64,000 nucleotides of DNA from Mytilus trossulus (Eukaryota). Location: positions 55,017,216-55,081,215 of the forward strand of contig NC_086385.1 in NCBI RefSeq assembly GCF_036588685.1, written 5' to 3'. Positions 15,572-63,575 of this stretch are shown here, piece by piece (the stretch's first letter is position 1; the number at the start of each line of letters is the position of its first letter). The notes below the pieces were generated by a model, which saw nothing but the letters and a program-made list of their open reading frames with translations, was not told the origin of the DNA and did no database searches. The translations under genes and the position numbers were made by a program.

Positions 15572-15965
15572 AATAATTACCCTTGCAAAGTATTGCATTA
15601 TATTACAATAACTCTTGCAAAGTAATGCATTATATTACAATAACTCTTGTAAAGTAATGCATTATATAACAATAACTCTTGCAAAGTAATGCATTATATT
15701 ACAATAACTCTTGCAAAGTAATGCATTATATTACAATACCTCTTGCAAAGTAATGCATTATATTACAATAACTCTTGCAAAGTAATGCATTATATGACAA
15801 TAACTCGTGCAAAGTAATGCATTATCTTAGTATAACTCTTGCAAAGTAATGCATTATATTATAATAAGTCTTGCAAAGTAATGCATTATATTACAATAAC
15901 TCTTACAAAGAAATGCATTATATTACAATAACTCTTGCAGCGGAATGCATTGAATTGCATATTAC
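15572..15965. repeat. 32-bp minisatellite (ctcttgcaaagtaatgcattatattacaataa), about 12 copies
   Basis: Direct tandem repeats with period 32. Confidence 0.95.
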
Positions 15966-30103: not shown

Positions 30104-31279
30104 TTATTTTTTACTTTACCTAAGTTAAATAAATTGTCTGGTCTTTAGTGTTTGAAAATAGTGACAAAGTAACCAAAGAACCCCCGCTCACACAAGTCGA
30201 TTATAAACTGACACCGCCATGACAAAAGCACAAAATACAGTTTCCAAACACAACATAGAAACTGAAGAGATAAACAGACACGATTCAAACACGATCCCAA
30301 GGATGAAGTCAGGTGAAGGTATATCTGTGGCATCCTTTACATGATTGTTATTTAAGTTTTTATTAGTTTTGACATCGTTTTCAAATGTTTTTGCCTTTAT
30401 AAAGTCAGACATCTGTAATTAACATAAAGTCGTGTTTCGCTGTTTTTAATATTTGTGTGGAATGTTTTTACATAATTCAGACTATTGTTTTGTTTCTTTC
30501 AAATCATTTAACTAGAAAAATGAGACCATCATGCGTTCCTATCTGTGTCAATTAATGCATCATGAGGTATCAATATAACTTCATCACCGAACCAATATTA
30601 CATGAATATCATGAAAATTAAAAGAAATGCACTTTTATAATGTATCAGCAATACCTTGATAAGAAGACTGTTAATTATACTTTGTATTTAAAAAGTAATA
30701 AATGGAAGTAATATAATCAAAATCTGCCCTTAAGGGTGTTCGTTTCTCAGTTTCAAAATAATTTTTAAACCATTAGTTTATATTGATAGGGGATAAAATG
30801 AGGATTAAAAAGAGCAAAAAAAATGCAGGACTGGAAAATGTTCTATCTTAATTTTTAACATTGACAAGTTTAAGTTCTCAAAAACTATTAAGATAATAAA
30901 AATTTAAGAGTTTGGTACTTTTACAGATGGCTCATTATTATACATGACAAAAATCTATCAAAGGAAAAATGGGGGTCAATCGGCAAAGTGAAGACCGAAA
31001 TTCGAACACATGACAACCGATCATCCCTACAACTAGTTTATCGATAGCTTTACTCAGTATTCAAAAAGTAATAAAAGCCTTTTATAGCTGACTACATGTA
31101 TGTGGTATGGGCTTTGTTCATTGTTAAACGCCGTACAGTGACCTATAGTTGTTAATTTCTGTGTCATTTTGGTCTCTTGTGGAGAGTTGTGTCATCGGCA
31201 GTCATACCACATCTCAAGTAATATAAGCAAATTCTACACATAAAACTATTTGTCACTCTAAACCGATTTACTGTCATAA

Positions 31280-32830
31280 CACTTATGAAATGTGAATCAA
31301 CAATAGCATCTTATCAACTGAGATAGCACTTATAAAATGTGAAACAACAATAGCTTCTTATCAACTGAGATAGCACTTAAAAATGTGAAACAACATTAGC
31401 ATCTTATCAACTGAGAAAACACTTATAAAATGTGAAACAACAATAGCATCTTATCAACTGAGATAGCACTTATGAAATGTGAAACAACATTAGCATCTAA
31501 TCAATTGAGATAGCACTTATAAAATGTGAAACAACAATAGCATCTTATCAACTGAGATAGCACTTATAAAATGTGAAACAACAATAGCATCTTATCAACA
31601 GAGATAGCACTTATAAAATGTGAAACAACATTAGCATCTTATCAACTGAGATAGCACTTATAAAATGTGAAACAACAATAGCATCTTATCAACAGAGATA
31701 GCACTTATAAAATGTGAAACAACATTAGCATCTTATCAACTGAGATAGCACTTATAAAATGTGAAACAACATTAGCATCTTATCAACTGAGATAGCACAA
31801 ATAAAAAGTGAAACAACAATAGCATCTTATCAACATAGATAGCACTTATAAAATGTGAAAAAAACAATATCATCTTAACAACTGAGATAGCACTTATAAA
31901 ATGTGAAACAACAATACCATCTTTTAAACAACTGAGATAGCACTTATAAAATGTGAAACAACATTACCATCTTATCAACTGAGATAGCACTTAATGTGAA
32001 ACAACAATAGCATCTTATCAACTGAGATAGCACAAATAAAATGTGAAACAACAATGGCATCTTATCAACTGAGATAGCACTTATGAAATGTGAAACAACA
32101 TTAGCATCTTATCAACTGAGATAGCACTTATAAAATGTGAAACAACAATAGCATCTTATCAACTGAGATAGCACTTATAAAATGTGAAACAACATTAGCA
32201 TCTTATCAACTGAGATAGCACTTATAAAATGTGAAACAACATTAGCATCTTATCAACTGAGATAGCACAAATAAAAAGTGAAACAACAATAGCATCTTAT
32301 CAACTGAGATAGCACTTATAAAATGTGAAACAACAATACCATCTTAACAACTGAGATAGCACTTATAAAATGTGAAACAACATTACCATCTTATCAACTG
32401 AGATAGCACAAATAAAAAGTGAAACAACAATAGCATCTTATCAACTGAGATAGCACTTATAAAATGTGAAACAACATTAGCATCTTATCAACTGAGATAG
32501 CACTTATAAAATGTGAAACAACAATAGCATCTTATCAACTGAGATAGCACTTATAAAATGTGAAACAACATTAGCATCTTATCAACTGAGATAGCACTTA
32601 TAAAATGTGAAACAACAATAGCATCTTATCAACTGAGATAGCACTTATAAAATTTTAAACAACATTAGCATCTTATCAACTGAGATAGCACTTAAAAAAA
32701 GTGAAACAACAATAGCATCTTATCAACTGAGATAGCACTTATAAAATGTGAAACAACAATAGCATCTTAACAACTGAGATAGCACTTATAAAATGTGAAA
32801 CAACAATAGCATCTTATCAACTGAGATAGT
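31280..32830. repeat. 47-bp minisatellite (atagcatcttatcaactgagatagcacttataaaatgtgaaacaaca), about 33 copies
   Basis: Direct tandem repeats with period 47 and no spacers. Confidence 0.97.
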
Positions 32831-38716: not shown

Positions 38717-39242
38717 TACGATAATAGAGTTAATTTACTCGAATAGCTGCATCACAAAAGACTAATAACGGTAAATCAATCTATATCCGTACCACATACA
38801 TGTAACTGCCTAACAAGCCTTTGTTTATTGATAATTTTCACTAAAAGATAATTGGAAGAGTAAAAGAGACAAATCTGAAGAAAAAAGGTATGGTCAGATG
38901 TGGTGTGAGTGCCAATGAGACAACTTTCCATCCAAATAACAATGTATGGAAGTAAACCATTATAGGTCAACGTAAGACCTTCGAAGCCTGCTATCTACCT
39001 ACACAAAATGCACACAGTAGCTGCGCGTATACTCCAGTAGATGTTGAAATTGCATCTGGTCACGTTATAATAATTAAACGGAAAAAAAGAGGGGAAAATG
39101 AATTACTTGCAAGCTTCGCAAACGTGTATTAAGATTTTGTATAGCTTCGTCTGCGCCAAACGGTACCCATTTTGTCCGACATAATTGTTCTACCTTTTCT
39201 TAGAAAAAAACATACAAGTTTAGAAACGAAGTAGTTAATTTG

Positions 39243-39512
39243 AAAAATGGACTTTGACATTAATTATAAAGTGCTTGTGTTATTTTGTATGCTTCTTATG
39301 ACGTCTTTAAACACACAGTTTAGTGAAAAGGCTGTGAAAATATCGAAATATAACAATGGCATTTCTCATTTGCCATACAACTTTTAATTATCAACTGTGA
39401 AACAAATAACAACATACCTTGCTCTTTGACACTGAATTATATTTATATTAAATTTGATTAATTCGATCGACAAACAACTTCCTCAAAGAGAAGGTCAAGG
39501 AAGTATCATGAA
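39243..39512 (+). repeat. Diverged inverted homologue of the CNE (others at ~29345-29595 and at 49910-49983 + 53610-53812)
   Basis: ATTAATTCGATCGACAAACAAC on + matches the reverse complement of GTTGTTTGTCGATCGAATTAAT in CNE3. Collinear blocks include aaaaatg(g)actttgac, TGACGTC and ctgtg(a/g)aa(a)tat. Confidence 0.6.
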
Positions 39513-39984
39513 TCTGATTCACCATCAGTGATACAAATGTATGTTTGGTGCTTGCATGCATATTGTTGACAATGTAGTATGGACTTTGTGCATTGTTGAT
39601 GTCCATACGCTGACCTTTAACTGATAATATAGTTGATAGTTGTCTCAATAGAACCATACTGCCTCTTCTTATTTTTATATGTTTACCACAACCACTTTTA
39701 TATGTGCCAACAAGCCCGTTATTCAGTGGTTGTAGCCTATAGTATTTTTTATTGTTTCGTTATATGTTTGGTTGGATTCCGATGCTGTGGTGTCTGACTA
39801 TACTTCAATGTTTTTTCTCATTGTTGAAGGTCGTTATATGCCCTGCATTCTACATGATTTGGATATTGATGACATAATATTTTTTGTCGAACACTCACAT
39901 CATCTGTCAAGCATGTGCGTTTGACTCAAACAATTATATTGATATAATAATTATTCATCTCAATTAGGTGTTAGTCAGTTAAAT

Positions 39985-40024
39985 AAAACAAATTCTCAGC
40001 TCAGATGTTAGTATTCAATTTATT
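39985..40024 (-). terminator. Poly(A) signal, copy 3
   Basis: AATAAA at 40019-40024 within the conserved 3'-end block. Confidence 0.65.
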
Positions 40025-40317
40025 GTATAAAAACCAAAAGCAACAAATTATATTCGTAATGTTTTAGCACATTGCATGTGAAAACACTGTCATAAGCACA
40101 AAGCACATTGAAAGGCTTAATCTGTTGATAATGAAACAAAACTTTCGATCAATGTTATATCGATTGAATGAGTACATAGTACAATTAAAGGATCTCGGCC
40201 TTCTACCTTCCAATTAAATTCTCGGGCTTCTACCTTTTCAATGTTATATTTAGAAGATGAGCTTACTATATGTCCTTATTACTATAAAATAATTAAGATA
40301 TGATGAAGAGGTAGAAC

Positions 40318-40521
40318 TCAATCACTTTGCCAACCACCAGTCTTCATTCCTGTTATACTATGCGAACGTTTCATTTGTTCATGTTTCCGTTTTGAATGCT
40401 GGTCCATAAAACTAGTCAAGTTTCGTTCATTGTCATAAATGGTAAACAACATATTGCAATTTTGTCTGGATTTGCAAAGTCCAGGAATCAGATTTGAACT
40501 AGCAGGTAATACTAATGACAT
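40318..40521 (-). CDS. Small intronless ORF family, copy 3 (67 aa, MSLVLPASSNLIPGLCKSRQNCNMLFTIY...)
   Basis: Ungapped paralogue. TGG replaces the TGA stop of copies 1/2, adding 4 aa. An in-frame upstream ATG lies at 40584. Promoter and poly(A) signal are conserved. Confidence 0.75.
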   Translation of the reverse strand: MSLVLPASSNLIPGLCKSRQNCNMLFTIYDNERNLTSFMDQHSKRKHEQMKRSHSITGMKTGGWQSD

Positions 40522-40676
40522 CTTTTCCTGATTGAAACTGATATTGATAATCTTTTCCAGTCCTCGATAATATTTCGAACACATTCAAATAACTTCCTTT
40601 CTGTTTCTTTTAAGTATCAAACGTAACAATCACTTTACAGTTAGGTCTAATCTAAACATTTTCTGTGTCATTTTCT

Positions 40677-40723
40677 CTTTTATATGTTTCAAGTAAATAG
40701 GCGTGGTATCAAATAGGCGTGGT
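40677..40723 (-). promoter_or_regulatory. Putative core promoter of copy 3
   Basis: Boxes at 40699-40707 and 40715-40723, followed by CATATAAAAG. Confidence 0.65.
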
Positions 40724-41277
40724 TTTACTCTAATTTTATAATGTTAAGTATATCACTAAATGATTCCAATTACTTAATTGCAAAATGTCACGATATCAGT
40801 CTGTGAATATAGATGTCAGTTATAATTGTCTGCTCGGCATTCCATTTAACAATTTCAGTTTACATTGTTTATCATATTATGATATTTCCTTTATTTCGAT
40901 TAAAAAAAAACTCAAATCCGTTCGTTGCATATTTGTCTCTACATGTTTATTTAAAGATGTGCATTTGTCTATGCATTTTATGTTATAAGCTGCGATGTCT
41001 TACATGTCAAAGAAGATCTCATTCCTTTAGTTTCTTATTGTTATTATTTTCTGTTGTGCTTTGAACTTTATTAAATTATTGCATTAATGATATTTTAACA
41101 TGTTTTAAATTATATTATAAAATAGTCATCACACATGTGAATAGAAAAAAGAAATGTTGCTTTTTGTTATTTCATTATGCAGTTTTGCAACTCGATTTTG
41201 AATAAATTATTGATCAGTTTTTCGGAAATCAATTTTTTTAAAGAGATTGTTTTGATTTAAATGTAAAATCCTGGAAT

Positions 41278-41510
41278 ATATATCACATTGCATAGCGGGT
41301 TATATTCACGGGGGGGGGGGGGGGGGGGGGGGGGCTGATTTTCATTGAATAATGTATACGAAATATTTTGGTGGTTATTAATTTGGAAGATCCAATACCT
41401 TTGCATGTGCACTTGTAAATTTTAAACGGACTTTATTTAAGCGATTTTGTTTTATCCGCGAAAATAAGCGAAAATTTGCACTCAGCGATAATAATCCGCT
41501 AAACGGTATT
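41278..41510. mobile_element. MITE-like element containing a G25 run (paralogue ~55498-55732 with G26)
   Basis: Inverted ends tagcgggtta.../...taatccgcta; poly-G at 41310-41334 and 55528-55553. Confidence 0.55.
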
Positions 41511-42559
41511 ATAGACATATTTGCGAGAAGATGTAACCTGTATCTGAAGAAAAACAAATTATCTTGCTGATTGTTTAAGATTTTATTTTTGTTAAACTGC
41601 TAAACCACTGTTAAATTACAGGGAAGGATATCGCCCCAAAATTACAAGCTATATTGGAAACTAACTTTTATGTCAATTCGGTCTTTGGTAAACAATTTTA
41701 AAATCAAACCACCATATCTTCTTTTTCTATTTCTATAAACTTGAATAAACCTTATTTTTTCTCCTGAAAAAACTGTTGAAATGAAAGACATTCACCATAA
41801 CAGTCAGTACCTATTCACCTACCATTAACTCAAATATACTTGCTTTATTCTAGGATTGAAATTTCCTCGTTTGTTGAACCCATATTCCAATCGAACTGAG
41901 TATAAAGAATACATTTTTTGACTCATATCTAAACATTTAAAACAGTAAGGGTCGGTTAAAAACAAAACGTAAGGACAACAAAGCTGATTTCAGCTTCCAA
42001 ATTTTTAATTTACTAATTTCTCTGTAGTAACATTTCAACAGCGAAAAATATTTTAATCATTTTATTGTTTATCATGATTTCTTTGATATAGGTATGCTGC
42101 TAAATTTAAATCAATCAATCCAAGAGTTTTAAGTGATGAAATTGAATGTATCCCTCCGTTAATTCTTCGGAGGCAATTACGATTATGTTAATCGCTATGG
42201 AAAATTCCTTTCACAGATGACGTCGGATTTGTTTCAACTGTCGAAAGAACAATCCCGTCTCCTCCTTAACGAATGTTGCCTACTAAATCAGACTTATCCT
42301 CGAGTAAGTACTTATATGAGCAACACGACGGATGTCACATGTCAGGAATGATCCTCTTATAAATCTTAAGGACTTATATCACTGCAATCAGGCTAGTTTT
42401 GATTGGGGTTCAATTTGCTCAGTCAATTGTTTTTTGTTGTGTTGTTTGTCTTTTTCAATGGCGTTGTCAATTTATTTTCGACTTTTGAGATTGAATGGCC
42501 TTTTGTTATTGTTGGCCTCTTGTTAAGTTTTACTCTGACTCAAGAATGTATAGCCCGCT

Positions 42560-43863
42560 TATCCGAGGCACAGATTACCTTAGCCATAATGGCACCTTTT
42601 TTTTTTAATATTGGACTCAATGCTCTTCAACTTTGTATTTGTTTGGTTTATAACTATTTTGATATGAGCGTCACAGATGATTCTTGTGTAGACAAAACGC
42701 GCGTCTGCCGTTCTTAATTATAATCCTGGTACCGCTGTTAAATATTTACACCATTGGGTCGATGCCTCTGCTTGTGGACGATTCGTCCCCGAAGGTATCA
42801 CCAGCCCCGCAGTCAACACTTCGGTGTTGACATGAATATCAATTATGTGGTCATTTTTCTAAATTTCCTGTTTACAAAATTTAGAATTTTTCGAAAAACT
42901 AAGGATTTTCTTATCCCAGGCATAGACTATATGGTCATTTTCAAAAATTTTCTGTTAACAAAACTTTGATTTTTTTTAAAAGCTAAGGATTTTCTTATCA
43001 CAGGCATAGATAACCTTAGCCGTATTTGGCACAACTTTTTTGTAATTTTGGGTCCTCAATGCTCTTCTTTGGCTTTCTAATTGTTCTGAGCTGAGTGTCA
43101 CTGATGAGTCTTATGTAGACGAAACGCGCGTCTGGTGTTATTAATTATGATCCTGGTACCTTTGCTAACTATTTGCACCACTGGGTCGGTGCCTCTGCTG
43201 GTGGACGTTTCGTCCCTGGAGATATCTCCATTCCAGTAGTCAACACTTCGGTGTTGACATGAATATCAATTATGTGGTCATTTTTATAAATTTCCTGTTT
43301 ACAAAATTTTGACGAAAAACTAAGGATTTTCTTATGCCAGGCATAAATTACCAAAGCCGTAATTGACACTACTTTTTTTTTGGAATTTTGGATCCTAAAT
43401 GCTCTTGAACTTTGTCTTTGTTTGGTTTATAACTATTTTGATATAAGCGTCACTGGTGAGTCTTATGTGGACGAAACGCGCGTCTGGTGTACTAAATTAT
43501 GATCATGGTACCTTTGCTAACTATTTACACCACTGGGTCGGTGCCTCTGCTGGTGGACGTGTCGTCGTCGAGGGTATCACCAACCCAGTAGTCAACACTC
43601 CGGTGTTCACATGAAAATCAATTATGTGGTCATTTTTATAAATTTCCTGTTTACAAAACTTTGAATTTTTCGAAAAGATAAGGATTTCTTTTTCCCAGAC
43701 ATAGATTTACTTAGCCGTATTTGGCACAACTTTTTCAAAATTTGGATTTTCAATGCTCTTCATTTTTGTATTTGTTTGGTTTATAACTATTTTGATATGA
43801 GCGTCACCGAAATGCGCGTCTGGCGTACACAATTATAATCCACGTACCTTTAATAACTATTTA
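42560..43863 (+). mobile_element. Tandem retrozyme array (~352-354-bp monomers; four hammerhead positions)
   Basis: Cores at ~42673 (mutated), 43101 (intact), 43453 (CTGGTGA) and ~43807 (core deleted). Confidence 0.9.
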
Positions 43864-43867
43864 CCGA

Positions 43868-44340
43868 TTTTATCATGTAGCGTATCCTTCACGTTTCTCG
43901 TAAGGTTGATGCCTTTATCATTTATACCTAATATTTATTTTATATCATGCTACAAACATCCCTGACCTTGCCAAGTTAACGTTGGCACCACGTTGTAGTA
44001 TATTGCATGTCTCATTTTCTTCAATCTTCACATTTTGATCTTTGCTGGTACCTATTTCGCACCTTCTTTTAATTTTACACGAAGTTTTTGTCTTAGATCA
44101 GTTGTCGATCGAATAAATAAATACCTGCAAATATATAATTCACATTTAAAGTGCAGTATACATTTTTATTGTCATTTGACAGACACTTATTGTGTATGCA
44201 AAAACTTGAAATATTCCACACCTAATTAAGATCTATTTGCTGAATGACGTACTTAACGCTTCTGAAATAAACTCAGAAAAAAAATTAAAGTGTATCTTTT
44301 TTATTACCGACTTTGTTTTCCGATAATATGTTTATCAAGA
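43868..44340. promoter_or_regulatory. CNE copy 4
   Basis: TGACGTactTAACGC at 44245-44259; homologous to the other copies. Confidence 0.5.
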
Positions 44341-44474
44341 AAAAAAAGTCTAGTAGGCCTAATTGTGTGTTGAAAACCTTTTAAAACCTTGTGACTTGCA
44401 TTTAGATTTGTATCATCATCACTCTTTTATATACATGTTTATATACATGTAATAGCAAATATGACAAGGAGATA

Positions 44475-44880
44475 AATAAACTCATCATATATACCAGGAC
44501 TAAATTTAATATATACGCCAGACGTGCATTTCGTCTACAAAAGACTCATCCGTGACGCTCGAATCCAAAAAAGTTGAAATATAGCCAAATAAAGTACTAG
44601 GTTGAAAAGCATTGAGATCCAAAATTCTTAAAAGTGTTGCCAAATACAGCGAAAGTAAAAAATGCCTGAGGTAGAAAAGCCTTAGTATTTCAAAAAAATT
44701 CAAATTTGGTAAACAGTTTATTTATAAATATAACAATATCAATGATTATTCATGTCAGCACAAAAACTGCTGACTACTGGGCTTGTTATACCCTCGGGGA
44801 AATAAATCTCCACCAGCAGTTGCATCGACCCAGTGGTTGAAACTAAACTCATCATAGATACCAGGACTACATTTAATATA
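44475..44880 (-). mobile_element. Retrozyme monomer of a second subfamily (~367-bp period), hammerhead mutated
   Basis: Terminal redundancy aaactcatcata.ataccaggacta at ~44478 and ~44845; core reads CGGATGA...GAAAT. Confidence 0.85.
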
Positions 44881-47675: not shown

Positions 47676-49983
47676 GGTATGATATAATATTAGAATTTTA
47701 TATTATATACAAGGACATTTTAAAGACGATTTCTTTACTTTATCTCAATAAATCTTGATTGATACTTTATTGAGTCACTCTCATGATAAGGAGGTACAAA
47801 ACATTACAGTTGAGTGCATACCAAGTATAACATAAAGTAAACACACGTTAACAGCGTTTGTATATATTTTATTATTATACAACAATTTTAGCGTTTGCTT
47901 GTAAACGCACATTTACTATAATTCCGTTCATGCTTTCGAAATGGAAATTTTTGATTTTTTCCCCAGTTAACGCGCGTTTATTATGTGTCCGTTTAGCTTG
48001 AAACGGGCGTTTCCTACAGATTCGACACGTGCACTTGAAATAATTTCGCTACATTTGTACATTATTTTTAATTTGTTAAAAATACATTTATCTAAATAGT
48101 TAACGAATCTGTTTATAGAACTGTAACAATTCAAAAACACTTTTAATTCAAAATATTAACGTTTATTAATTGCTCAAAATCAGTTCCAAAAACTTTAACA
48201 TGTTTGAAAAGGGGATTTTTTATAAAAAAATAAATCAAAAGTTACAAGTACTGATATAAATATCGACTCAGAATGATATTTCCTTTCTAGAACATTATCT
48301 GATTGTACCAACTCATTTCTATCTTCAGTACATTTTTTGCCTGATCTTCTTGAACTCATCCACAAATATAAACTGAAAATCTTGTTGGTTTTACAGTCCC
48401 AGGATAAATATTTCCTTTGTACTTCTTTACTATTATCATCTTTCAATTCCTTGGAATGTTATATCATAAACTCTAATCGCCAATACGTCAATCATAAATA
48501 AACAGTTGGCCATTTTAATGAAACTTGAATTATGTTAAGTCACTGTACCAAGATTGTGATGACAATCTGCGTTAACGCACGTAAACTACAAACACTTAAC
48601 GTGCACTTACTTTTTACTAAAACAGATATCGCGCCTTTCTTCCTTCACGTTAACGCGGCAGTAAACGTGAAATTTGGTTTACTCTTTTAAAAATTAGAAG
48701 AGGCGTTATTTTGCGTTAACGCGTAGATAAATAAAGGCAACAGGAGTATACCGCTGTTCGAAATTAATAAATCGATTGACAAGAAAACAAGTACGGGTTT
48801 CGAACTAAAACTGAGGGAAACACAATAACAGAGAACCACGACACAACAGAAACAAACGTTTAAAAATCTACCTTTTTATATGAAAGCACGCTTTTGCAAC
48901 TATGCAGTGAAATAAAAACAAACTAAAACCGATACATGATTTAAGGCAAATATTTTATAAGTATTCAATTATCCACTCATTTCTATAAGGAAGTTTATTC
49001 TAGCGATAAAATATTTACATTGTAGTTATTATGCGGAGCATATGCATAAGCCATTAAAAAATGAAAGTGTTAAATGTCATAACCACACTCCTGTTCCCTT
49101 TCCACAAATATGACCTATCTAATTAGACTATTAATCGGATTTGTAATCACGTGAGAAACAAGACAAATGTCACATGTTGATCAGGATCTGATTGCCTTTC
49201 CGGAGTACCTAAGATCACTTCCAGTTTCTGGTGGGATTCATTATACTCAGTCTTTATTTTTATTAAGTGTGTTTTGTGTACCATTATGTATCTCTCTTGT
49301 CTTCTTTAACCATGGCGTTCTTCTTTTTTTTTTTTATTTATGAGTTTGAATTTCACTCTGCTATCCCCCGTTCGGCTTTATTAAAACGGTATTGATGTAG
49401 TAAAACTAAACATATTCGCATGACAATCGGATATCATGTACTTAAAAAAAATGGTTTTATATTAAAAATTCAACGTAGAAATCTTCTATGGTTAATTGAT
49501 AATTTTCACAAAAAGATAATCGGAAGAGTAAAAGAGACAAATCTGAAGTAAATAGGTATGGGAAGATGTATTGTGAGTGCCAATGAGACAACTTTCCATC
49601 CAAATAACAATTTATGGAAGTAAACCATTATAGGTTAACGTACGACCTTCAAAGCCTGCTATATACCTACACAAAATGCACACAGTAGCTGCGCGTATAC
49701 TCCAGTAGATGTTGAATTTGCATCTGTTCACGTTATAATAATTAAACGCGAAAAAAGAGGGAAAAATGAATTACTTGCACGCTTCGCAAACGTGTATTAA
49801 AATTTTGTATAGCTTCGTCTGCGCCAAACGGTACCCATTTTGTCCGAAATAATTGTTCTACCTTTTCTTAGAAAAAACATACAAGTTTAGAAACGAAGTA
49901 GGTAATTTGAAAAATGTACTTTGACATTAATTATAAAATGCTTGTGTTGTTTCTGATGCTTCTTATGACGTCTTTAAACACAC

Positions 49984-52900
49984 TTATCATACTTACTTAC
50001 TTAATCCTCTTCGTGCATACTCGCACATGAGGCCACTACCAACGCCCTCCACTGTTGCCTGTCTTGTGCCTTTCTTTCTGCTTCTCCCCATGTCATTCCC
50101 ATGGCTCTTAGTTCGCTTTCTATTGTACGTCGCCATGTCTCTTTAGGTCTCCCTCTCTTTCTTTCCCCCTCTGCTGGTGTCCAACGAAGAGCTATCCTTG
50201 TGATGTCATGTTTGTCTTGCCGTAGAACATGGCCTATCCGTTTCCATCGCCTTTCTTTAATTTCAACTCTGATGTCTCGTTGTAAGGTTAGGGTGTATAG
50301 ATCTTTATTAATGATGGTTTTTGGCCAGAAGATCTTGCAAATTTTCCGAAGACATGTATTGTGGAAAGATGACAGTTTGTTGAAGTCAGATTTTATAACC
50401 CTCCATGACTCTGCACCATATAGCAAAACTGATTTTACATTACTATTATATATTTTGATTTTTGTGGACCTGGATATTGATGTTGTTTTCCATACTGTTC
50501 GTAATCTGCAGAAAGAAGTTCTGGCTTTGTTGATCCTTGCCATTATATCTTTGCTAGTGCCGTTGTCCTGGCTGATGTTAGTACCTAGATAAGTAAAATT
50601 TTCCACTTCTTCTATGTTGTCTCCTTTAAGAGTTATGGGTTGTTAACTAGTTTTGTCATTAAGACTAATTATCTTTGTCTTTTGTGCATTTATCTTTAAA
50701 CCTACAGATAGAGCAGTGTCATGTAGTCTTGATGTTTTGTTCTTCGTGTTTGCTCTAGTTGTTGATAAAAGGCATATGTCGTCTGCAAAATCTAGATCTT
50801 CTAAGATTGTGTTCATCGACCATCTTATTCCAGTTACTCTATTGCCTAGTGTTCTTCTCGTGCACTAGTCGATGACAATGAGGAAAAGAAGGGGAGAGAT
50901 GACGCATCCTTGTCTTACTCCAGATTGTACATTAATCCAGGTGGATTTGGTTCCATTGTGTAGGACACAGCATCTGTAGTTGTTGTAAAATAATTTAATC
51001 ATGCTAATTATTTTCTCAGGTATGCCATACGATCTCATTATGTCCCACATGCTGTCTCTGTCCAAGCTATCAAAAGCCTTTTCAAAGTCCACATAGTTTA
51101 TGACGATGTTGTGTTGCCATTCTATGCACTGCTCAATGATGTTTCTGAGTGTGAATATCTGGTCACTGCACCCTTTATTGGCTCTAAAACCTGCTTGTTC
51201 ATTCCGCAGGGTGTCATCTAAAGCATCTACTTTTCGCTTGGCAATAACTCTCAGGAAAACTTTTGCAGGTACAGACAGTAGAGATATACCTCTCCAGTTG
51301 TTGCAATTTTTCATGTCACCTTTCTTGGCAAGTTTAACTAGTAGTCCTTCCTCCCAGTCTTCAGGTATATTTTCATCCTCCCATATTTTGCTAAATAGTG
51401 TTTGCAGTATTGATGCTGTTGTTTCCACATCTGCCTTAAGGAGTTCTGCACTGATGTTGTCTACTCCAGCTGATTTACTATTTTTTAGCTTGCATAATGC
51501 TTTCTTTATTTCACCAAGTTCAATTTTTTCTTCTCATATATCAATTTCGATCTTGTCTTCAGTGTTATCAAATAGAGCTGGTTTGTCTGGTGGTTCTCTG
51601 TTCAGAACTTCCCGAAAGTGCTCTGCCCATCTTTCAAGTTTCTGTGCTTCTGATGTTATTACCTCTCCATTCTTGCTTAAAACTGGTGTGTCATTGTTGT
51701 TACTTTTACCACATAGCTGTTTAGTGATCTTATATACAGTACTTAGTTCTCCATGTTTGCATGCCTCTTCTGCTTCATTTGCCAATCCTTCAATGTATTG
51801 TAATTTGTCTTCTCTAGCTTTTTTCTTAACTTCTTTATTTAGCTCTGATTATTCTTTTTGAAGCTTTTCTTTCAACCTTTCTGATCTTGCCTGATTGCAC
51901 TTGCTTTTTGTAGATCTTCTCTTTTCAATAACATTCCAGGTTGTATCTGGAATCCACCTTTTCCTTGTACTGTCTCTAATTCCAAGTACATTTTCAGCTG
52001 TATCGTTAAACATAGTTTTTACTTTGTTCCAATGTTCATTTAAATCAGGACCAATGTTGTCGTGGTTTTCACTGATAGTGTGTAGTGTTTGGTATTGGTT
52101 TCTTATGCTGATGTTGAATTTTTGTCTTATTAGATTGTCTTTGAGGCGGTGGATGTTATATATTTTTCTGTTATGCTGTGGTCTGGCTACCTTTCTCAGT
52201 TTAAGTTTAATTTTCCCAAGTAGAAGGTGGTGGTCACTTCCACAATCGGCTCCCCTTTTGACACAGACATCCATCAGAGACTTTCTCCATCTTCCATTTA
52301 TAATTATGTGGTCTATCTGGTTTTGGTCCCTGCCATTTGGTGAGTTCCATGTTAGTTTGTGAATGTCCTTGTGTGGAAATAAGGAACCTCCAATAACTAG
52401 ATCATTCAAGCCACATAAATCTACTAAAAGTCCACCATTTTCATTTCATTCTCCACATCCATGTCTGCCCATTATTCTTTCCTTACATGAGTTATCTAAC
52501 CCAATCTTTGCATTTAGATCACCAATTACAAGACATAAATCATGTGCTGGTACTTTACTGATAAGGGATTGTAATTTGTCATAAAACTTATTCTTGTCCT
52601 CAATACTAGCTTCGTTGGTAGGTGCATAGCATTGACTCACTGACAGTTTTGAGTATTTTGAATAAAACCTTGCCATAATAAGCCTTTCATCCACTGGTTG
52701 CCATTCTAGAAGAGCTCTTTTTGATTCCTTGCTTAGTACTAAAGCAACTCCCTCATAGTGTTTGTTGTCTGTTCGGCCTGAGTACAATATGGTCTTACCT
52801 GTGTCCGTTGAGATCGATCCGTTGTTTAACCATCTGCATTCACTGACACCTAGTATACTGATGTTATACCTTCTCATCTCATTGACAACTTGTGCTGTTT

Positions 52901-53608
52901 TTCCCGTCTCATACATGGTCCGCACATTCCATGCCCCTATGCTGAGAACATTTTTTGGCGTTAAGAGTCCACACTTCTTGCCCCTAGCTGCATTTCTGCT
53001 TTCACTAGACACATTCATTGGGTCATCTGTATGACGTATGTCCTCGTTCACGCAATTCAGTGTTTCTTTTGGTGTGGTTTCCGTAATCAGCTTCTTTTTA
53101 CTCTGCCTGGTGATTAGCCATGCGAGAAACCTAATTCCTGCAGGGCGGAGTTTTGCTGTCTGGGTGTTCTTTCCCATAGATGATTGCCTGCCATGGCTGA
53201 TGAGTTCCATCTTTCCAGCTTTTCTTTCTGGGTCTGCTCCCATAGCCTTTGATCTTCCAAGATCAAACCACAAGGCAGTGGTACTATTTACCCATAGTTG
53301 GGACAAGGTTGATGAGTGTAAGGGCGTGTCCATACGCCGATGGGCCTACACACTGCATCTCTGGGGCCCTTGCTGCTCCGAGATCCTCTACAATAATGCC
53401 TAGAATGCTAAATCCTAGTTACCATGTGCTGTCGCGAGGAGGCATTGTAGAAGTCTTGAATAGTGTAGAGGCTATGTACTGGCAGAAAGACTTAGGCGAT
53501 CGGCTTTCTTTTCACCTGCAATGCAGGCTAGCCAGCGGTGATAGAGAGCCTATGGCTCTAACCACACTAGACGCTTGCACAATCCTGTGGAACAAACCAC
53601 CAGCACAC
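49984..53608 (-). mobile_element. Full-length RTE-clade non-LTR retrotransposon (APE + RT), inactivated by stops and frameshifts
   Basis: APE motifs (IGAWNVRT, GVSECRW, GDLNA, QIDHI, SDHH) and RT motifs (GVRQGC, FADD). The ORF ends directly in a (TAAG)n tail. A ~7-bp TSD aacacac/aacaaac lies at 49977-49983 / 53610-53616. The paralogue at ~39305-39320 shows the empty site. Confidence 0.95.
53385..53608 (-). ncRNA. HDV-like self-cleaving ribozyme at the RTE 5' end
   Basis: P1 GTGTGCT (53608-53602) / AGCACAT (53430-53424) with a G1-U wobble; P2 CTTCTACAAT / ATTGTAGAGG; P3 GCC/GAC; L3 TCCTCGC; P1.1 GG; P4 CTAGGAT/ATTCTAG; J4/2 GCATT. Confidence 0.85.
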
Positions 53609-54287
53609 TAACAAACAGTTTAGTGAAAAAGCTGTGAAAATATCGAAATATAGCAATGGCATTTCTCGTTTGCCATACAATTTTTAATTATCAACTGTGA
53701 AGCAAATAACAACATGCCTTGCTCTTTAACACTGAATTATATTTTTATTAAATTTGATTAATTCGATCGACAAACAACTTCCTCAAAGAGAAGGTCAAGG
53801 ATGTATCATGAAACTGATTCAACAGCAGTGATACAAAGTTATATTTGGTGCTTGCATGCATATTGTTGACAATGAAGTATGGACTTTGTGTTTGTTGATG
53901 TCCATACGGTGATCGTTAACTGATTATATAGTTGATAGTTGTCTCATTGGAACCATACTGTATCTTCTTATTTTTATATGTTAAACACAACCACTTTTAT
54001 ATGTGCCAACACGCCCGTTATTCAGTGGTTATAGTCTATGGTATTTTTTATTGTTTCATTATATGTTTCAATGCATTCCGATGCTGTGGTGTCTGACTAT
54101 AATTTAATGGTTTTTCACATTGTTGAAGGTCGTTATATATATGCCCTGCATTCTACATGATTTGGATATTGATGACATAATATTTTTTGTCGAACACTCA
54201 CATCATCTGTCAAGCATGTGCGTTTGACTCAAACAATTATATTGATATAATAATTATTCATCTCAATTAGGTGTTAGTCAGTTAAAT

Positions 54288-54327
54288 AAAACAAATTCTC
54301 AGCTCAGATGTTAGTATTCAATTTATT
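54288..54327 (-). terminator. Poly(A) signal, copy 4
   Basis: AATAAA at 54322-54327 within the conserved 3'-end block. Confidence 0.65.
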
Positions 54328-54606
54328 GTATAAAAACCAAAAGCAACAAATTATATTCGTAATGTTTTAGCACATTGCATGTGAAAACACTGTCATAAGC
54401 ACAACGCACATTGAAAGGCTTAATCTGTTGATAACGATCAATGTTATATCGATTGAATGAGTACATAGTACAATTAAAGGATCTCGGCATTCTACCTTCC
54501 AAATAAATTCTCGGGTTTCTACCTTTTCAATGTTATATTTAGAAGATGAGCTTACTATATGTCCTTATTATTATGAAATAATTAAGATATGATGAAAAGG
54601 TAGAAC

Positions 54607-54810
54607 TCAATCACTTTTCCAACCACCAGTCTTCATTCCTGCTATTCTATGTGAACGTTTCATCTGTTTATGTTTCTGTTTTGAATGCTGGTCCATAAAA
54701 CTAGTCAAGTTTCGTTCATTGTCATAAATGGTAAACAACATATTGCGATTTTGTCTGGATTCGCAAAGTCCAAGAATCAGATTTGAACTAGCAGGTAATA
54801 CTAATGACAT
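54607..54810 (-). CDS. Small intronless ORF family, copy 4 (67 aa), recent duplicate of copy 3, possibly decaying
   Basis: Ten substitutions versus copy 3 (8 non-synonymous, 2 synonymous by hand count). A ~75-bp 5' leader deletion removes the upstream ATG. The ORF is intact. Confidence 0.65.
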   Translation of the reverse strand: MSLVLPASSNLILGLCESRQNRNMLFTIYDNERNLTSFMDQHSKQKHKQMKRSHRIAGMKTGGWKSD

Positions 54811-54906
54811 CTTTTCTCTTCTTTTCTGTTTCTTTTAAGTAGCAAACGTAACAATCACTTTACAGTTAGGTTAGATCTAATCTAAACATTTTCTATTTCA
54901 TTTTCT

Positions 54907-54953
54907 CCTTTATATGTTTCAATTAAATAGGCGTGGTGTCAAATAGGCGTGGT
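54907..54953 (-). promoter_or_regulatory. Putative core promoter of copy 4
   Basis: Boxes at 54929-54937 and 54945-54953, followed by CATATAAAGG. Confidence 0.65.
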
Positions 54954-56772
54954 TTTACTCTAATTTTAAAATGTTAAGTATATCAATAAATGATTCCAAT
55001 TACTTAATAGCAAAATGTCACGATATCAGTATGTGAATATAGATGTCAGTTATAATTGGTTGCTCGGCTTTTTATTTAACAATTTAAGTTTACATTGTTT
55101 ATCATATTATGATATTTCCTTTATTTCGATTAAAAAAAAATTCTGAAATCTGTTTGTTGCATATTTTTCTCTACATGTTTATTTATAGATGTGCGTTTGT
55201 CTATGCATTTTATGTTAAAAGCTGCGATGTCTTACATGTCGGAGAAGATCTCATTCCTTTAGTTTTTTATTGTGATTATTTTCTGTTGTGCTTTGAATTT
55301 TATTAAATTATTGCATTAAGGATGTTTGAACATGTTTTTAATTATATTATAAAATAGTCATCAAACATGAAATTGTTGCTTTTTGTTATATCATTATGCA
55401 GTTGTGCAACTCGATTTTGAATAAATTATTGATCAGTTTTCTGGAAATCAGTTTTTTTAAAGAGATCATTTGTTTGAAATGTAAAATCCTGGAATATATA
55501 CCATATTGCATAGCGGGTTATTTTCACGGGGGGGGGGGGGGGGGGGGGGGGGGCGGGGCAATTTTCATTGAATAATGTATACGAAATATTTTGGTGGTTA
55601 TTATTTTGGCAGATTCAATACCTTTGCCTGTGCACTTTTAAATTTTAAACGGATTTTATTTAGGCGATTTTGTTTTATCCGCGAAAGTAAGCGAAAATTT
55701 GCACTCAGCGATAATAATCCGGTAAACGGTATTATAGACATATTTGCGAGAAGATGTAACCTGTATCTGAAGAAAAAAAATTATCTTGCTGATTTTTTTA
55801 GTTTTTATTTTTGTTAAACTGCTAAACCACTATTAAATTACAGGAAAGGATAGCGCTCCATAATTACAGGCAATATTGGAAACTAACTTTTATGTCAATT
55901 CGGTCTCTGGTAAACAGTTTTAAAAACAAACCACCATATCTTCTTTTTCTATTTCTATGAGCTTGATTAACCCTTATTTTTTCTCCTGAAAAAACTGTTG
56001 CAATAAAAGACTCTCACCATAACAGTATATATTGTCAGTACCTATTCACCTACCATTAATTGAAATATACTTGCTTTGTTCTAGGATTGAAATTTGCTCG
56101 TTTGTAGAACCCCTATTCCAATAGAACTGAGTAAAAAGGATAAATATTTTGACTCATATCTAAACCTTTAAAACAGTAAGGGCCGGTTAAAAACAAAACG
56201 TAAGGACAACAAAGCTGATTTCAGCTTTTACTTATTTCTCTGTAGTAACCTTTCAATAGTGAAAAATATTTTAATGATTGTATTGTTTATCATGATTTCT
56301 TTGATAAAGGTATGCTGCTCAATTTAAATCAATCAATCCAAGAGTTTTAAGTGATGCAATTGAATGTATCCCTCCGTAAATTCTACGGAGGCAATTACGA
56401 TTATGTTGGTCGCTATGGAAAAGTCGGATTTGTTTCAACTGTCGGAAGAACAATCTCGTCTCCTCCTTAACGAATGTTGCCTACCAAATCAGACTTATCC
56501 TCGAGTAAGTACTAATATGAGCAACACGACGGATGCCACATGTCAGGAATGATCCCCTTATAAATCTTTAGGACTTATATCACCGCAATCATGCTAGTAT
56601 TGATTGGGCTTCAATTCGCTCAGTCAACTGTTTTTTTGTTGTGTTGTTCGTCTTTTTCGTCTGATCAATGGCGTTGTCAATTTATTTTCGACTTTTGAGT
56701 TTGAATGTCCTTTTGTTATTGTTGGCCTCTTGTTAAGTTTTACTCTGACTCAAGAATGTATAGCCCGCTTAT

Positions 56773-58234
56773 CCGAGGCATAGATTACTTTAGCCGTAAT
56801 GGCACAATTTTTTGGAATATTGGATCCTCAATGCTCTTCAACTTTGTATTTGTTTGGATTATAACTATTTTGATATGAGCGTCACTGATGAGTCTTGTGT
56901 AGACGAAACGCGCGTCTGCCGTACTAAATTATAATCCTGGTACCCTTGTTAACTATTTACACCACTGGGTCGATGCCTCTGCTGGTGGACGTTTCGTCCC
57001 AGAGGGTATCACCAGCCCAGCAGTCAACACTTCGGTGTTGACATGAATATCAATTATATGGTCATTTTTCTAAATTTCCTGTTTACAAAACTTTGAATTT
57101 TTCGAAAAACTAAGGATTTTCTTATCCCAGGCATAGATTATAAGGTCATTTTCATAAATTTTCTGTTAACAAAACTTGAAATTTTTGAAAAACTAAGGAT
57201 TTTCTTTTTTTTTTTTATAATGAATTTTCTTTATTGTAACAAATAGACTAGCACAACATGTATGAACAAAGGTGTACAGAATGGCATTTTAACACAAAAG
57301 AAGTATTATATAATAAAACAACAATTGAATATATATGGTGGTGCAATAGTAGCTTGAAAATAAATAAATATCTTATAACATTGAAGTCTTACTTGTTCTT
57401 GCGATATGCATAAGTGGTGTTTCAATCAAATTTTAACATTTATTATTTATTCTATGATAGGGGCCCAGGGACTCCAGTATTTGTTATATTCCTCTACAAA
57501 GAGGTTTCTAAATTCAAGTGTTCCTTTAAATAGTTTTTTAAAGCATTTAAATTTGGCAAAACTTCTTGTAGTTTTGTTCGGTAGATGTAGTATTTTGAAA
57601 AAAGAATAATCTTATTTTTAACAAAATTCAATTTAACATTTTCTAAGATACCAAATAAAATAATCATAATATTCAAAGGCAGTTCTAAGGATTTTCTTAC
57701 CCCCAGAAGTAGATTACCTTAGCCGTATTTGGCACAACTTTTTGTAATTTTCGGGTACTCAATGCTCTTCTTTGGCTTTCTAATTGTTCTGATCTGAGTG
57801 TCACTGATGAGTCTTATGTAGACGAAACGGGCGTCTGGTGTACTATTATAATGATACTGGTACCTTTGATAACTATTTACACCACTGGATCGGTGCCTCT
57901 GCTGGTGGACGTTTCGTCCCCGGGGATATCTCCAATCTAGTAGTCAACACTTCGGTGTTGACATGAATATCAATTATGTGGTCATTTTTATAAATTTCCT
58001 GTTTACAAAACTTTGAATTTTTCGAAAAGCTACGGACTTTCTTATCCCACGCATAGATTACCTTAGCCGTATTTTGCACAACGTTTTGGAATTTTGGATC
58101 CTCAATGCTCTTCATTTTTGTATTTGTTTGGTTTATAACTATTTTGATATGAGCGTCACTGATGAGTCTTATGTAAACGAAATGCGCGTCTGGCGTACTA
58201 AATTATAATCCTGGTACCTTTGATAACTATTTAC
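56773..58234 (+). mobile_element. Tandem retrozyme array (hammerhead cores at 56885, 57804, 58159)
   Basis: Paralogue of 42560-43863 with a 355-bp period for the last monomer. The first two cores are intact. Confidence 0.9.
57207..57684 (-). mobile_element. Short 3' fragment of an L1/Tx1-like LINE inside the retrozyme array
   Basis: 14-bp TSD ctaaggattttctt (57193-57206 / 57685-57698), a poly-T tail and an ILFG...KYYIYRTK remnant. Absent from the paralogue at ~42985. Confidence 0.8.
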
Positions 58235-58239
58235 CAATA

Positions 58240-58700
58240 TAATCATGTAGCGTATCCTTCACGTTTCTCGTAAGGTTGATACCTTTATAATGTATACCTA
58301 ATATTTATTTTATATCATGCTACAAACATCCCTGACCTTGTCGAGTTAACGTTGGAACCACGTTGAAGTATATTTGATGTCTCATTTTCTTCAATCTTCA
58401 CATTTTTATCTTTGCTGGTACCTATTTCGCACCTTCTTTTAATTTTACACAAGGTTTTTTTCTTAGATCAGTTGTCGATCGAATTAATAAATACCTGCAA
58501 ATATATAATTCACATTTAAAGTGCAATTTATACTTTTATTGTCATTCGACAGACACTTATGTTGTATGCAAAACCTGAAATATTCCACACCTAATTAAGA
58601 TCTTTTTGCTGAATGACGTACTTAACGCTTTTGAAATAAACTCAGAAAAAAATTATAGTGTATCTTTTTTATTACCGACTTTGTTTTCCGATAATATATT
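58240..58700. promoter_or_regulatory. CNE copy 6
   Basis: Near-identical to copy 4. TGACGTactTAACGC at 58615-58629. Confidence 0.5.
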
Positions 58701-58803
58701 TTTCCAGAACCAAGTATTGTTGAAAAACTTTTTGAACATTTTGACTTGCATTGTAAAATCATCACTCTGTTATTTACATGTAAAAGCAAATATGACAAGG
58801 AGA

Positions 58804-59055
58804 TAAATAAACTAATCATAGATACCAGGACTAAATTTGATATACGCCAGACGCACATTGTGTCTACAAAAGACTCATCAGTGACGCTTGAATCTAAAAA
58901 AGTTGAAATAAAGCCAAATAAAGTATACTAAGTTGAAGAGCATTAGTATCCAAAATTCCTAAAAGTGTTGCCAAATACAGCTAAGGTAATGTATGCCTGA
59001 GATAGAAAAGCCTTAGTATTTCAAAAAGTTTCAAATTTGGTAAACAGTTAATTTT
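58804..59055 (-). mobile_element. Retrozyme fragment (second subfamily), GAAA box mutated, truncated next to the Gypsy element
   Basis: Paralogue of 44475-44720. Confidence 0.8.
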
Positions 59056-62496: not shown

Positions 62497-63575
62497 CCTA
62501 GATACAAGTATATTGTCTTAGGGAGGGATAAATCCTACTTTGTAAAGAATCACTCTGATTCAAACAAAAAATTCTCTGAAACCGATATTATCAAGATGAT
62601 TGATTTCTTGATTGACAACATATTTGTTTCGTTCGGAGAACGTGTTTTTCAACAGACTGTCGGCATCCCAATGGGAACAAACTGTGCCCCTCTACTTGCT
62701 GACTTGTTTCTTTATTATTATGAGGCTGACTTCATGCAGGAACTTCTTAGGAAGAAAGATAAGAAGTTAGCAATATCCTTTAACTCTACTTTCCGCTATA
62801 TAGATGACGTTCTTTCACTAAACAATTCAAAATTTGGTGACTATATGGAACGCATCTATCCCATCGAATTGGAGATAAAGGATACTACAGATACAGTTAA
62901 GTCAGCTTCATATCTTGACTTACATCTAGAAATTGACAATGAGGGTCGGTTGAAGACAAAACTTTACGACAAAAGAGATGATTTCAGCTTTCCAATTGTG
63001 AACTTTCCATTTCTAAGTAGCAACATTCCAGCAGCACCTGCATACGGGGTATATATCTCTCAATTGATACGATATTCCCGTGCTTGCATTTCCTATCATG
63101 ATTTTCTTGATAGAGGGTTACTGCTCACAAGGAAGCTATTAAATCAAGAGTTCCAAATGGTGAAGTTGAAATCATCCCTTCGTAAATTTTACGGACGCCA
63201 TCACGAGTTGGTTGACCGTTATGGAATAACCATTTCACAAATGATATCGGATATGTTCCTTACGTCGTAACTACAATCACCTTCCCTTTCATGAATTTGA
63301 CCGAGCGAATAAGACTATTTACCGGATTTGTAATCACATAAGCAACACGACGGGTGCCGCATGTGGAGCAGGATCTGCTTACCCTTCCGGAGCACCTGAG
63401 ATCACCCCTAGTTTTTGGTGGGGTTCGTGTTGTTTATTCTTTAGTTTTCTATGTTGTGTCATGTGTACTATTGTTTTTCTGTTTGTCTTTTTTATTTTTA
63501 GCCATGGCGTTGTCAGTTTATTTTAGATTTATGAGTTTGACTGTCCCTTTGGTATCTTTCGTCCCTCCTTTTTTT
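62497..63575 (+). mobile_element. 5'-truncated Penelope-like element (Naiad-type RT with no C-terminal endonuclease) plus 3' UTR
   Basis: GIPMGTNCAPLLADLFL, FRYIDD, YLDL and FPIVNFPFLSSNIP motifs. The ORF is open to the stop at 63270. It is inserted into the Gypsy 3' LTR. Confidence 0.85.

What the first reader, a model, noticed from the sequence alone, without database searches (positions are those of the whole stretch)
53385..53608. HDV-like ribozyme defines the 5' end of a full-length RTE LINE, with a 148-nt J1/2 insertion
The first seven bases of the element (GTGTGCT, G1 = 53608) pair with AGCACAT about 180 nt downstream as P1 with the canonical G1-U wobble. A 10-bp P2, L3 UCCUCGC, P1.1 GG, a 7-bp P4 and a J4/2 cytosine complete the nested double pseudoknot. 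The predicted cleavage site lies within 1 nt of the TSD, whose position is independently fixed by the empty paralogous site at ~39310. This implies the inserted RNA was the self-cleaved product. HDV-like ribozymes in RTE 5' UTRs are established. The long J1/2, the P3 C-A mismatch and the atypical J4/2 (GCAUU) are features of this copy and may impair activity.
Basis: partly seen in the sequence, partly recalled or inferred. Interest (0 to 1): 0.7.

Follow-up and report, generated by a model that had tools for sequence, protein, structure and literature searches.

The report
Swappable odd-core ribozyme heads RTE retrotransposons
A jumping gene in a likely mussel genome begins exactly at the predicted cut site of a hepatitis-delta-type RNA fold that likely frees its RNA from longer transcripts; the fold's odd core is shared by most of the family instead of being damage to this copy, and related versions of this front piece sit on 14 distantly related jumping-gene lineages, among which it has likely been swapped.

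Summary
The fold and the element are real. A 3.6-kb RTE-type LINE starts at G1 (53608), one base from a 7-bp target duplication fixed by an empty paralogous site. Across 14 lineages P1, P2 and P4 stay 98-100% paired with compensatory changes; the catalytic C is invariant; 20 of 21 detectable target duplications end within 1 nt of G1. C-A occurs in 12 of 14 lineages, some recently active with intact ORFs; none of 80 cores has a fully Watson-Crick P3. Both partners of HDV's A-minor contact changed, so this is a variant core failing the standard descriptor; cleavage is untested. New here: the ~325-nt head (71-97% identical) sits on bodies only 42-69% identical in protein, and head and body trees conflict (AU p<2e-5), so heads were likely exchanged between lineages. 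Ribozyme-headed RTEs and long J1/2 domains are published; the scan has noted such heads on other DNA many times, including, in this genome, odd core positions and a module shared between LINE types.

The parts
49984..53608 (-). Full-length RTE-type LINE copy (lineage A here), 3625 bp, non-functional ORF
53385..53608 (-). HDV-like ribozyme fold, G1 to end of P2 (224 nt); predicted cut between 53609 and 53608
53602..53608 (-). P1 5' strand (G1 = 53608)
   Evidence: 100% of cells paired in 14 lineages, 2 of 7 pairs with changes on both sides
53454..53601 (-). J1/2 domain, 148 nt: a small hairpin (53587-53600) and a multibranch domain (about 53458-53584) holding hairpins at about 53538-53565, 53516-53526 and 53484-53509
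   Evidence: RNAalifold and pair counts on 14 lineages; structure derived from the same alignment, so counts lean towards it
53444..53453 (-). P2 5' strand (10 bp helix; may extend by 5 more pairs with bulges)
   Evidence: 5 of 10 pairs with changes on both sides; extension predicted without covariation
53431..53443 (-). P3 (G-C, C-A, C-G) and 7-nt L3; A29 equivalent at 53432
   Evidence: central pair is C-A in 12 of 14 lineages, C-G in 2
53424..53430 (-). P1 3' strand
53422..53423 (-). GG of P1.1
   Evidence: G38 14 of 14, G39 13 of 14 lineages
53400..53418 (-). P4 hairpin, 7 bp
   Evidence: 3 of 7 pairs with changes on both sides
53395..53399 (-). J4/2 GCAUU; putative catalytic C (C75 equivalent) at 53398; U at both positions where HDV has A77 and A78
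   Evidence: C invariant in 14 of 14; position 77 is U in 11 of 12 C-A lineages; 76 and 78 vary
53385..53394 (-). P2 3' strand
53291..53373 (-). Two conserved stem-loops downstream of the ribozyme, part of the shared head
   Evidence: helices 15-19, 96-100% paired
53284..53608 (-). ~325-nt head module shared among 14 RTE lineages; identity to lineage C drops at about element base 324
53078..53089 (-). Conserved motif at the N-terminal end of the ORF region (ITET codons); identity to lineage B drops here, and short two-ended derivatives join head to tail just after it
50001..53345 (-). Single reading frame, endonuclease (from about 52937) and reverse transcriptase (FADD at 50789), with five premature stops and no frameshift
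49984..50003 (-). 3' tail of short TAAG-type repeats overlapping the stop codon
53610..53616 (-). Target-site duplication, upstream copy (one mismatch); one extra A at 53609
49977..49983 (-). Target-site duplication, downstream copy
39310..39316 (-). Empty paralogous site in a segmental duplicate (94% identical flanks)

Best explanation
This RTE-type LINE starts with an HDV-type double-pseudoknot fold that likely cuts the RNA at G1 and so likely sets the element's 5' end, using a variant core (C-A in P3, no A-minor adenines in J4/2) that is shared by 12 of 14 lineages, on a head module that has likely been exchanged between lineages. Shown: the fold is conserved with compensatory changes, copies start at G1, target duplications abut G1, the core variant is family-wide, and head and body trees conflict. 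Inferred: host read-through transcription supplies the RNA; self-cleavage releases a 5'-OH RNA that is translated and reverse-transcribed; the structured J1/2 and long P2 hold P1 and P2 together as in drz-Agam-2-1 and may offset the weak P3; the C-A pair removed the receptor for the last J4/2 adenine, after which that strand drifted (lineage H, C-A with GCUAA, looks like the intermediate); heads moved by template switching or recombination at conserved motifs in the 5' region. This copy is dead as a coding element but its core is identical to its family's.
For: Pair counts; invariant U20, C21, C22, C24, G25, G38, G74, C75 in 14 of 14 lineages against 46% invariant columns overall, with variation at positions 23, 76 and 78. 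60 of 79 copies keep the 5' end; target duplications found for 21 of 48 tailed copies (null 222 of 2256), 17 abutting G1, 3 one base off, 1 three bases off; base before G1 is G in only 4 of 60, so no cap-derived G excess; no shared upstream sequence except one duplicated locus. C-A lineages include intact ORFs over 1000 aa (B, C, I, N) and copy pairs 98-99% identical. Head 71-97% nt versus body 42-69% aa; 1 of 12 tree splits shared; AU p 5e-8 and 2e-5; bodies coherent across domains; 44 of 45 copies have their nearest ribozyme in their own body cluster, so each pairing spread. Literature: ribozymes at RTE 5' ends (PMC5786205, PMC6765202, passages), activation by structured J1/2 (PMC4908430, parts 1-2 of 4), A-minor contact of the last J4/2 A on C18-G29 (bioRxiv 2022.09.22.508989, passages).
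Against: No cleavage shown. Single changes in the 3-bp P3 strongly reduce HDV and CPEB3 activity (PMC9901934, passages), and the working descriptor asks for C-R-R-A in J4/2 (PMC6326823, passages); this core fails both. No Rfam match. Nested folding gives P3 probability 0.00 in 13 of 14 lineages, and J4/2 of this copy can pair with the P2/P3 junction, hiding the catalytic C (pseudoknots not modelled). An alternative partner for the P1 5' strand inside J1/2 is invariant and scores lower energy in 10 of 14 lineages (no covariation). J1/2 folding z-scores are mostly not significant. Heads are young relatives, so invariance has limited power. A fixed 5' end is also what an internal promoter gives. 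No target duplication was found by the script for lineages C, F, G, J, M, N, O or for this copy.
Confidence: 0.7

Rival explanations
1. The C-A lineages carry a catalytically dead or nearly dead relic; the 5' end is set by an internal promoter or a host nuclease, and the fold is kept for translation or protein binding.
For: P3 mismatch and lost J4/2 adenines against mutational data (PMC9901934, passages); competing pairings; invariant unpaired runs in the head could be DNA elements.
Against: P1, which matters mainly for cleavage, covaries within C-A lineages; C75 fixed while 76 and 78 vary; no extra-G excess at 5' junctions; a natural P3 mismatch is described for the jewel wasp R2 ribozyme (PMC3774820, section 16).
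Confidence: 0.17
2. The fold cleaves, but the register differs from the one drawn: the invariant A that follows J4/2 acts as the docking adenine (J4/2 = C-N-N-N-A) and P3 is extended by a U-A pair, so the core is rearranged instead of weakened.
For: That A is present in 12 of 12 C-A lineages and is U in both C-G lineages; in lineages I and K an extra U separates it from the rest of P2.
Against: In lineage F the top P2 pair reads A-U behind a bulged U, which supports that position as part of P2; lineage H has C-A with a canonical J4/2.
Confidence: 0.2
3. Heads were homogenised by DNA-level gene conversion between genomic copies, not by template switching during reverse transcription.
For: Identity drops at several different conserved motifs (about bases 234, 325, 455-490, 531), as homology-driven exchange would give.
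Against: All exchanges seen replace the 5' end through to G1, and bodies are coherent from endonuclease to C-terminus; short head-tail derivatives with their own target duplications show jumps at the same motif during copying.
Confidence: 0.25
4. No exchange: the head is simply under much stronger constraint than the protein.
For: All 14 heads are homologous and structured.
Against: D and E heads are 97% identical on bodies 46% identical, whereas E and N bodies are 69% identical with heads 79% identical; each data set rejects the other's tree.
Confidence: 0.03

Closest known systems
drz-Agam-2-1 type large HDV-like ribozyme (Webb et al. 2016, PMC4908430; outline and parts 1-2 of 4 read)
   Same: Double pseudoknot with a large structured J1/2 and an extended P2 (10 bp or more here, 12 bp there).
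   Different: Central P3 pair is C-A and J4/2 lacks the two adenines in most lineages here; activity untested.
HDV-like ribozymes at 5' ends of RTE, R2, R4, R1, Ingi, LOA LINEs (Ruminski et al. 2011, not held; seen only through passages of PMC5786205, PMC6765202, PMC3774820)
   Same: Predicted cut site coincides with the element's 5' end; same proposed role of release from a co-transcript.
   Different: One homologous head is spread over 14 RTE lineages with a history that conflicts with the protein's; I found no report of this in nine searches, but the primary papers and their supplements were not available.
R2 ribozymes (Eickbush et al. 2013, PMC3774820; passages and section 16)
   Same: Long J1/2 (216-498 nt in moths); a P3 mismatch occurs in the jewel wasp ribozyme.
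   Different: R2 ribozymes keep a constrained A in J4/2 and are described as vertically inherited; here that A is lost or shifted and the head is mosaic.
5' UTR replacement and recombination in mammalian L1 (PMC5872511, passages)
   Same: 5' regulatory modules change independently of the ORFs; recombinant families spread.
   Different: L1 recruits non-homologous promoters within one lineage; here homologous ribozyme heads move among lineages under 70% identical in protein.
Bipartite non-autonomous RTE LINEs (Kojima 2018, PMC5786205; passages)
   Same: Short head-plus-tail derivatives of about 0.6 kb occur in several lineages of this family.
   Different: The window copy itself is full length.

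Membership tests
HDV-like ribozyme | Nested double pseudoknot with P1, P2, P4 in HDV order | tested here: met
   P1 100%, P2 98.6%, P4 97.9% of cells paired, with compensatory changes
HDV-like ribozyme | G1 paired with a pyrimidine at the cut site | tested here: met
   G1-C in 10, G1-U in 4 of 14 lineages
HDV-like ribozyme | P1.1 of one or two pairs between L3 and J1/4 | tested here: met
   C22-G38 14 of 14, C21-G39 13 of 14; no covariation
HDV-like ribozyme | L3 with U20, C24, G25 | tested here: met
   all invariant in 14 of 14; position 23 varies; descriptor from PMC6326823 passages
HDV-like ribozyme | Catalytic C in J4/2 | tested here: met
   C at 53398, invariant in 14 of 14
HDV-like ribozyme | Three standard pairs in P3 | tested here: not met
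   central C-A in this copy and 12 of 14 lineages; met with a G-U pair in lineages F and G; 0 of 80 cores read GGC
HDV-like ribozyme | J4/2 ending in purine-A (C-R-R-A descriptor, A-minor adenines) | tested here: not met
   GCAUU here; terminal AA only in lineages F, G, H and two older C copies
HDV-like ribozyme | Match to a curated Rfam HDV-type model | tested here: not met
   no hit at gathering score or at E up to 10
HDV-like ribozyme | Mg-dependent self-cleavage 5' of G1, lost in C75U | not testable with these tools
   only indirect: 5' ends and target duplications
RTE clade (BovB-type) LINE | Single ORF with APE endonuclease and RT, no C-terminal zinc finger or RNase H | tested here: met
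   Pfam on this copy and on intact relatives of 1046 and 1042 aa
RTE clade (BovB-type) LINE | About 3.5 kb, 3' tail of short tandem repeats, variable target duplication | tested here: met
   3625 bp, TAAG-type tail, 7-19 bp duplications; mean 3583 bp for bivalve RTE-BovB (PMC10294476, passages); tail feature recalled
RTE clade (BovB-type) LINE | RT tree placement with named RTE references | not tested
   homologue search returned no clade-named reference

The most novel reading that the evidence does not exclude
These retrotransposons carry a working HDV-type ribozyme with a rebuilt core, in which the C18-G29 pair and its docking adenine were replaced together (C-A pair plus a fixed J4/2 U), a form invisible to current descriptors, and this ribozyme head behaves as a mobile module that sweeps across RTE lineages that diverged long ago, giving a natural evolutionary series from canonical to variant core within one genome.
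Probability: 0.35. Interest if true: 0.7.

Novelty: new variant of a known kind. Interest (0 to 1): 0.5.

Why it matters
If the C-A core cleaves, the accepted sequence rules for HDV-like ribozymes are too narrow and descriptor searches miss a whole class; the 14 natural heads (canonical F and G, intermediate H, variant A-E, I-O) are a ready-made series for testing what the P3/J4-2 A-minor contact contributes and whether a large J1/2 can replace it. The head-body conflict shows that the part that sets a LINE's 5' end can be traded among lineages under 70% identical in protein, which means ribozymes cannot be assumed to track their retrotransposons' history. The basic observation, a ribozyme-headed RTE, is already established.

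Tried and rejected
Rfam scans gave no HDV-type hit. Single-sequence folding was uninformative. The idea that A29 and the J4/2 U changed strictly together was weakened: lineage H has C-A with GCUAA and two older lineage-C copies have GCAAA; the change is nested, not paired. CpG decay does not explain A29 or U30, as neither base lies in a CpG (sequence). RNA evidence: no RNA holder listed; raw reads from a related species were laid twice, reached depth 0 and about 2 near G1, showed no pile-up of ends, and decide nothing about cleavage; their loose ends only gave the lead to canonical J4/2 relatives. A covariance model could not be run on the whole genome, so the family was sampled by DNA and exact patterns; it found only this site in the window. 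One metagenome scan gave a single contig, probably the same kind of locus as L177 and not independent. The homologue search gave no clade name. No non-RTE body was found under this head among 79 copies; the one long non-RTE ORF (L155) follows a truncated head. Two of 60 fetched loci (L200, L210) were dropped because the core was not located; L166 and L213 were left out of the nearest-head count because their bodies are not RTE-coding. Per-mutant data for G29A, A77U and A78U were not seen; the two supplements of PMC9901934 were listed but not read.

Full report
1. Observation. The window holds a segmental duplicate without the element; its alignment blocks overlap at 39310-39316. The duplication is 7 bp with one mismatch in the upstream copy and one extra A before G1. 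Downstream lie endonuclease, RT and DUF6451 matches in one frame with five premature stops and a TAAG-type tail. Rfam gave no HDV-type match and the 329-nt 5' region does not fold better than shuffles (z -0.62).

2. The family. The genome is 1.3 Gb; the closest named protein hit to a relative is from Mytilus trossulus (85% identity), so the host is likely a Mytilus mussel. A DNA search with the 5' 281 bases scored 40 of 247 candidates; in the 30 loci returned, similarity begins at G1 or within a few bases and the flanks are unrelated. That set is biased towards 5'-complete copies. In a wider set of 79 copies (20 from that search, 58 chosen by core pattern or body search, and the window), 60 keep the family 5' end. 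A target duplication was found for 21 of 48 copies with a tail motif, against 222 of 2256 mismatched pairs; 17 abut G1 (6 of them with 1-2 bases of microhomology), 3 end one base away, 1 three bases away. All 21 are in C-A lineages (A, B, D, E, H, I, K); none was found for C, F, G, J, M, N, O, nor by the script for the window copy. The base before G1 is G in 4 of 60, and only one duplicated locus pair shares upstream sequence.

3. The fold is under selection. On one representative of each of 14 lineages, 95.8% of 403 cells of the 29 core pairs are standard pairs and 10 pairs change on both sides (shuffle mean 4.3, 0 of 500; slid controls 1-3). The shuffle ignores relatedness, so it is not a probability. 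U20, C21, C22, C24, G25, G38, G74 and C75 (HDV numbering, recalled) are invariant, whereas positions 23, 76 and 78 vary; 46% of all columns are invariant. J1/2 is 145-156 nt and forms a small hairpin plus a multibranch domain with several covarying stems, and two more stem-loops follow the ribozyme (these helices were predicted from the same alignment). J1/2 folding z-scores run from +0.55 to -2.85, -0.89 for this copy.

4. The odd core is a family trait. The P3 3' strand is GAC in 30 of 30 close copies. An exact pattern that allowed any base at that place matched 80 sites: GAC 69, GGT 9, GAT 2, GGC 0 (the pattern was drawn from known members and misses other ribozyme families). By lineage: F and G have G-U, C-G, C-G in P3 with J4/2 GCGAA or GCUAA; H has C-A with GCUAA; the other 11 have C-A with GCAUU, GCAUA, GCUUU, GCCUU or GCGUC. 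Position 77 is U in 11 of 12 C-A lineages (possibly one inherited change), while 76 and 78 changed repeatedly. In HDV the last J4/2 adenine makes a type I A-minor contact on C18-G29 (bioRxiv 2022.09.22.508989, passages; PMC1874588, passages), so both partners of that contact are altered here. Against activity: P3 of HDV and CPEB3 is highly sensitive to single changes (PMC9901934, passages and section 7); the design descriptor uses C-R-R-A (PMC6326823, passages); nested folding never forms P3 except in G and offers competing pairings for J4/2 and for the P1 5' strand. For activity: a P3 mismatch is described in the jewel wasp R2 ribozyme (PMC3774820, passages and section 16); a structured J1/2 with a long P2 speeds cleavage by up to three orders of magnitude in drz-Agam-2-1 (PMC4908430); non-standard P1.1 pairs are compatible with fast cleavage (PMC13635239, passages); and C-A lineages include intact ORFs above 1000 aa and copy pairs 98-99% identical. 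Changes private to the window copy are three bases in a J1/2 loop (53495, 53498, 53499) and one in L4 (53411).

5. The head is mosaic. Copies with nearly the same 5' end continue into unrelated bodies. Searching with bodies returned further heads. Fourteen body lineages were sampled; over 104 between-lineage pairs heads are 71-97% identical in DNA and bodies 42-69% in protein. Body sisters A-I, E-N, G-J, D-K (support 95-100) differ from head sisters D-E, J-N, I-K (99-100). The trees share 1 of 12 splits, the two A copies; each data set rejects the other's tree (AU p 5e-8 and 2e-5); nearest neighbours are mostly stable from endonuclease to C-terminus. For 44 of 45 copies the nearest ribozyme lies in the same body cluster (three lineages had one copy in that count), so the pairings were amplified after they formed. 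Identity falls at about element bases 234, 322-335, 454-488 and 531 depending on the pair. Short head-plus-tail derivatives join just after the motif at base 531 in several lineages, three with target duplications at G1.

6. Mechanism. Most likely (0.7): read-through RNA is cut at G1 by the head, translated without a cap and copied back, leaving duplications at G1; the large J1/2 helps a weakened or rebuilt core; template switching at conserved 5' motifs moves heads between lineages. The same logic (duplications next to the cut site) was used for twister variants in Perere-3 (PMC8501958, passages). Shown here: fold, conservation, 5' ends, mosaicism. Inferred: cleavage, transcription source, translation, the route of exchange. 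RNA reads from a related species had too little depth at G1 to test this.

7. Comparison and novelty. Ribozymes at RTE 5' ends are established (PMC5786205 and PMC6765202, passages; Ruminski 2011, Webb 2009 and Webb 2011 were not held and their supplements may list similar cores). Long J1/2 domains are known. 5' module turnover is known for L1 (PMC5872511, passages). In nine searches I saw no report of this core or of ribozyme heads traded among RTE lineages. Because two defining core features fail, I file it as a variant that works like an HDV-like ribozyme and descends from canonical ones, not as a standard member. The scan holds 94 notes on HDV-like RTE heads in at least 25 genomes and two related notes in this genome; none matched this sequence or the swap wording. 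Interest 0.5.

Noticed in passing
L034, L042, L049, L164, L167, L172, L176, L183, L028 (5' 0.6 kb): Short two-ended derivatives from several lineages join the head to the last 50-120 bases of a body just after the same conserved motif where the A/B head boundary lies; target duplications at G1 were found for L034, L049 and L164.
   Followed up: partly
window 53475-53481: An invariant 7-nt stretch of J1/2 can pair with the P1 5' strand in 13 of 14 lineages and overlaps a J1/2 helix; a possible folding trap or timer, without covariation.
   Followed up: partly
window 53080-53284 and relatives: Between head and ORF lie two repeats of a purine-rich motif and a GC-rich stem region that are recognisable in all lineages but diverge faster than the head; possible translation signal, not analysed.
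   Followed up: no
window 38823-44723 and 49491-59054: Tandem segmental duplication (85-94% identical) that supplies the empty site.
   Followed up: partly
window 49977-49983: The target sequence resembles the element's own first seven bases; other copies' target duplications do not, so probably chance.
   Followed up: partly
window 31276-32829: Minisatellite of 33 copies of a 47-bp unit; 21-bp arrays in opposite orientation at 4629-5144 and 11303-11734; 32-bp array at 15575-15951.
   Followed up: no
window 18887-19849 and 62499-63572: Two 96-98% identical RT-bearing fragments in opposite orientation; a zf-RVT ORF of another LINE type at 24706-25581.
   Followed up: no
L155:760-3855: A 1032-aa ORF unrelated to RTE follows a truncated head; it looks by recall like an LTR-retrotransposon Gag polyprotein, untested.
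   Followed up: no
L168 versus L203 (lineage H): P1 pair 4 switches between U-A and C-G within one lineage, and H has only one standard P1.1 pair.
   Followed up: partly
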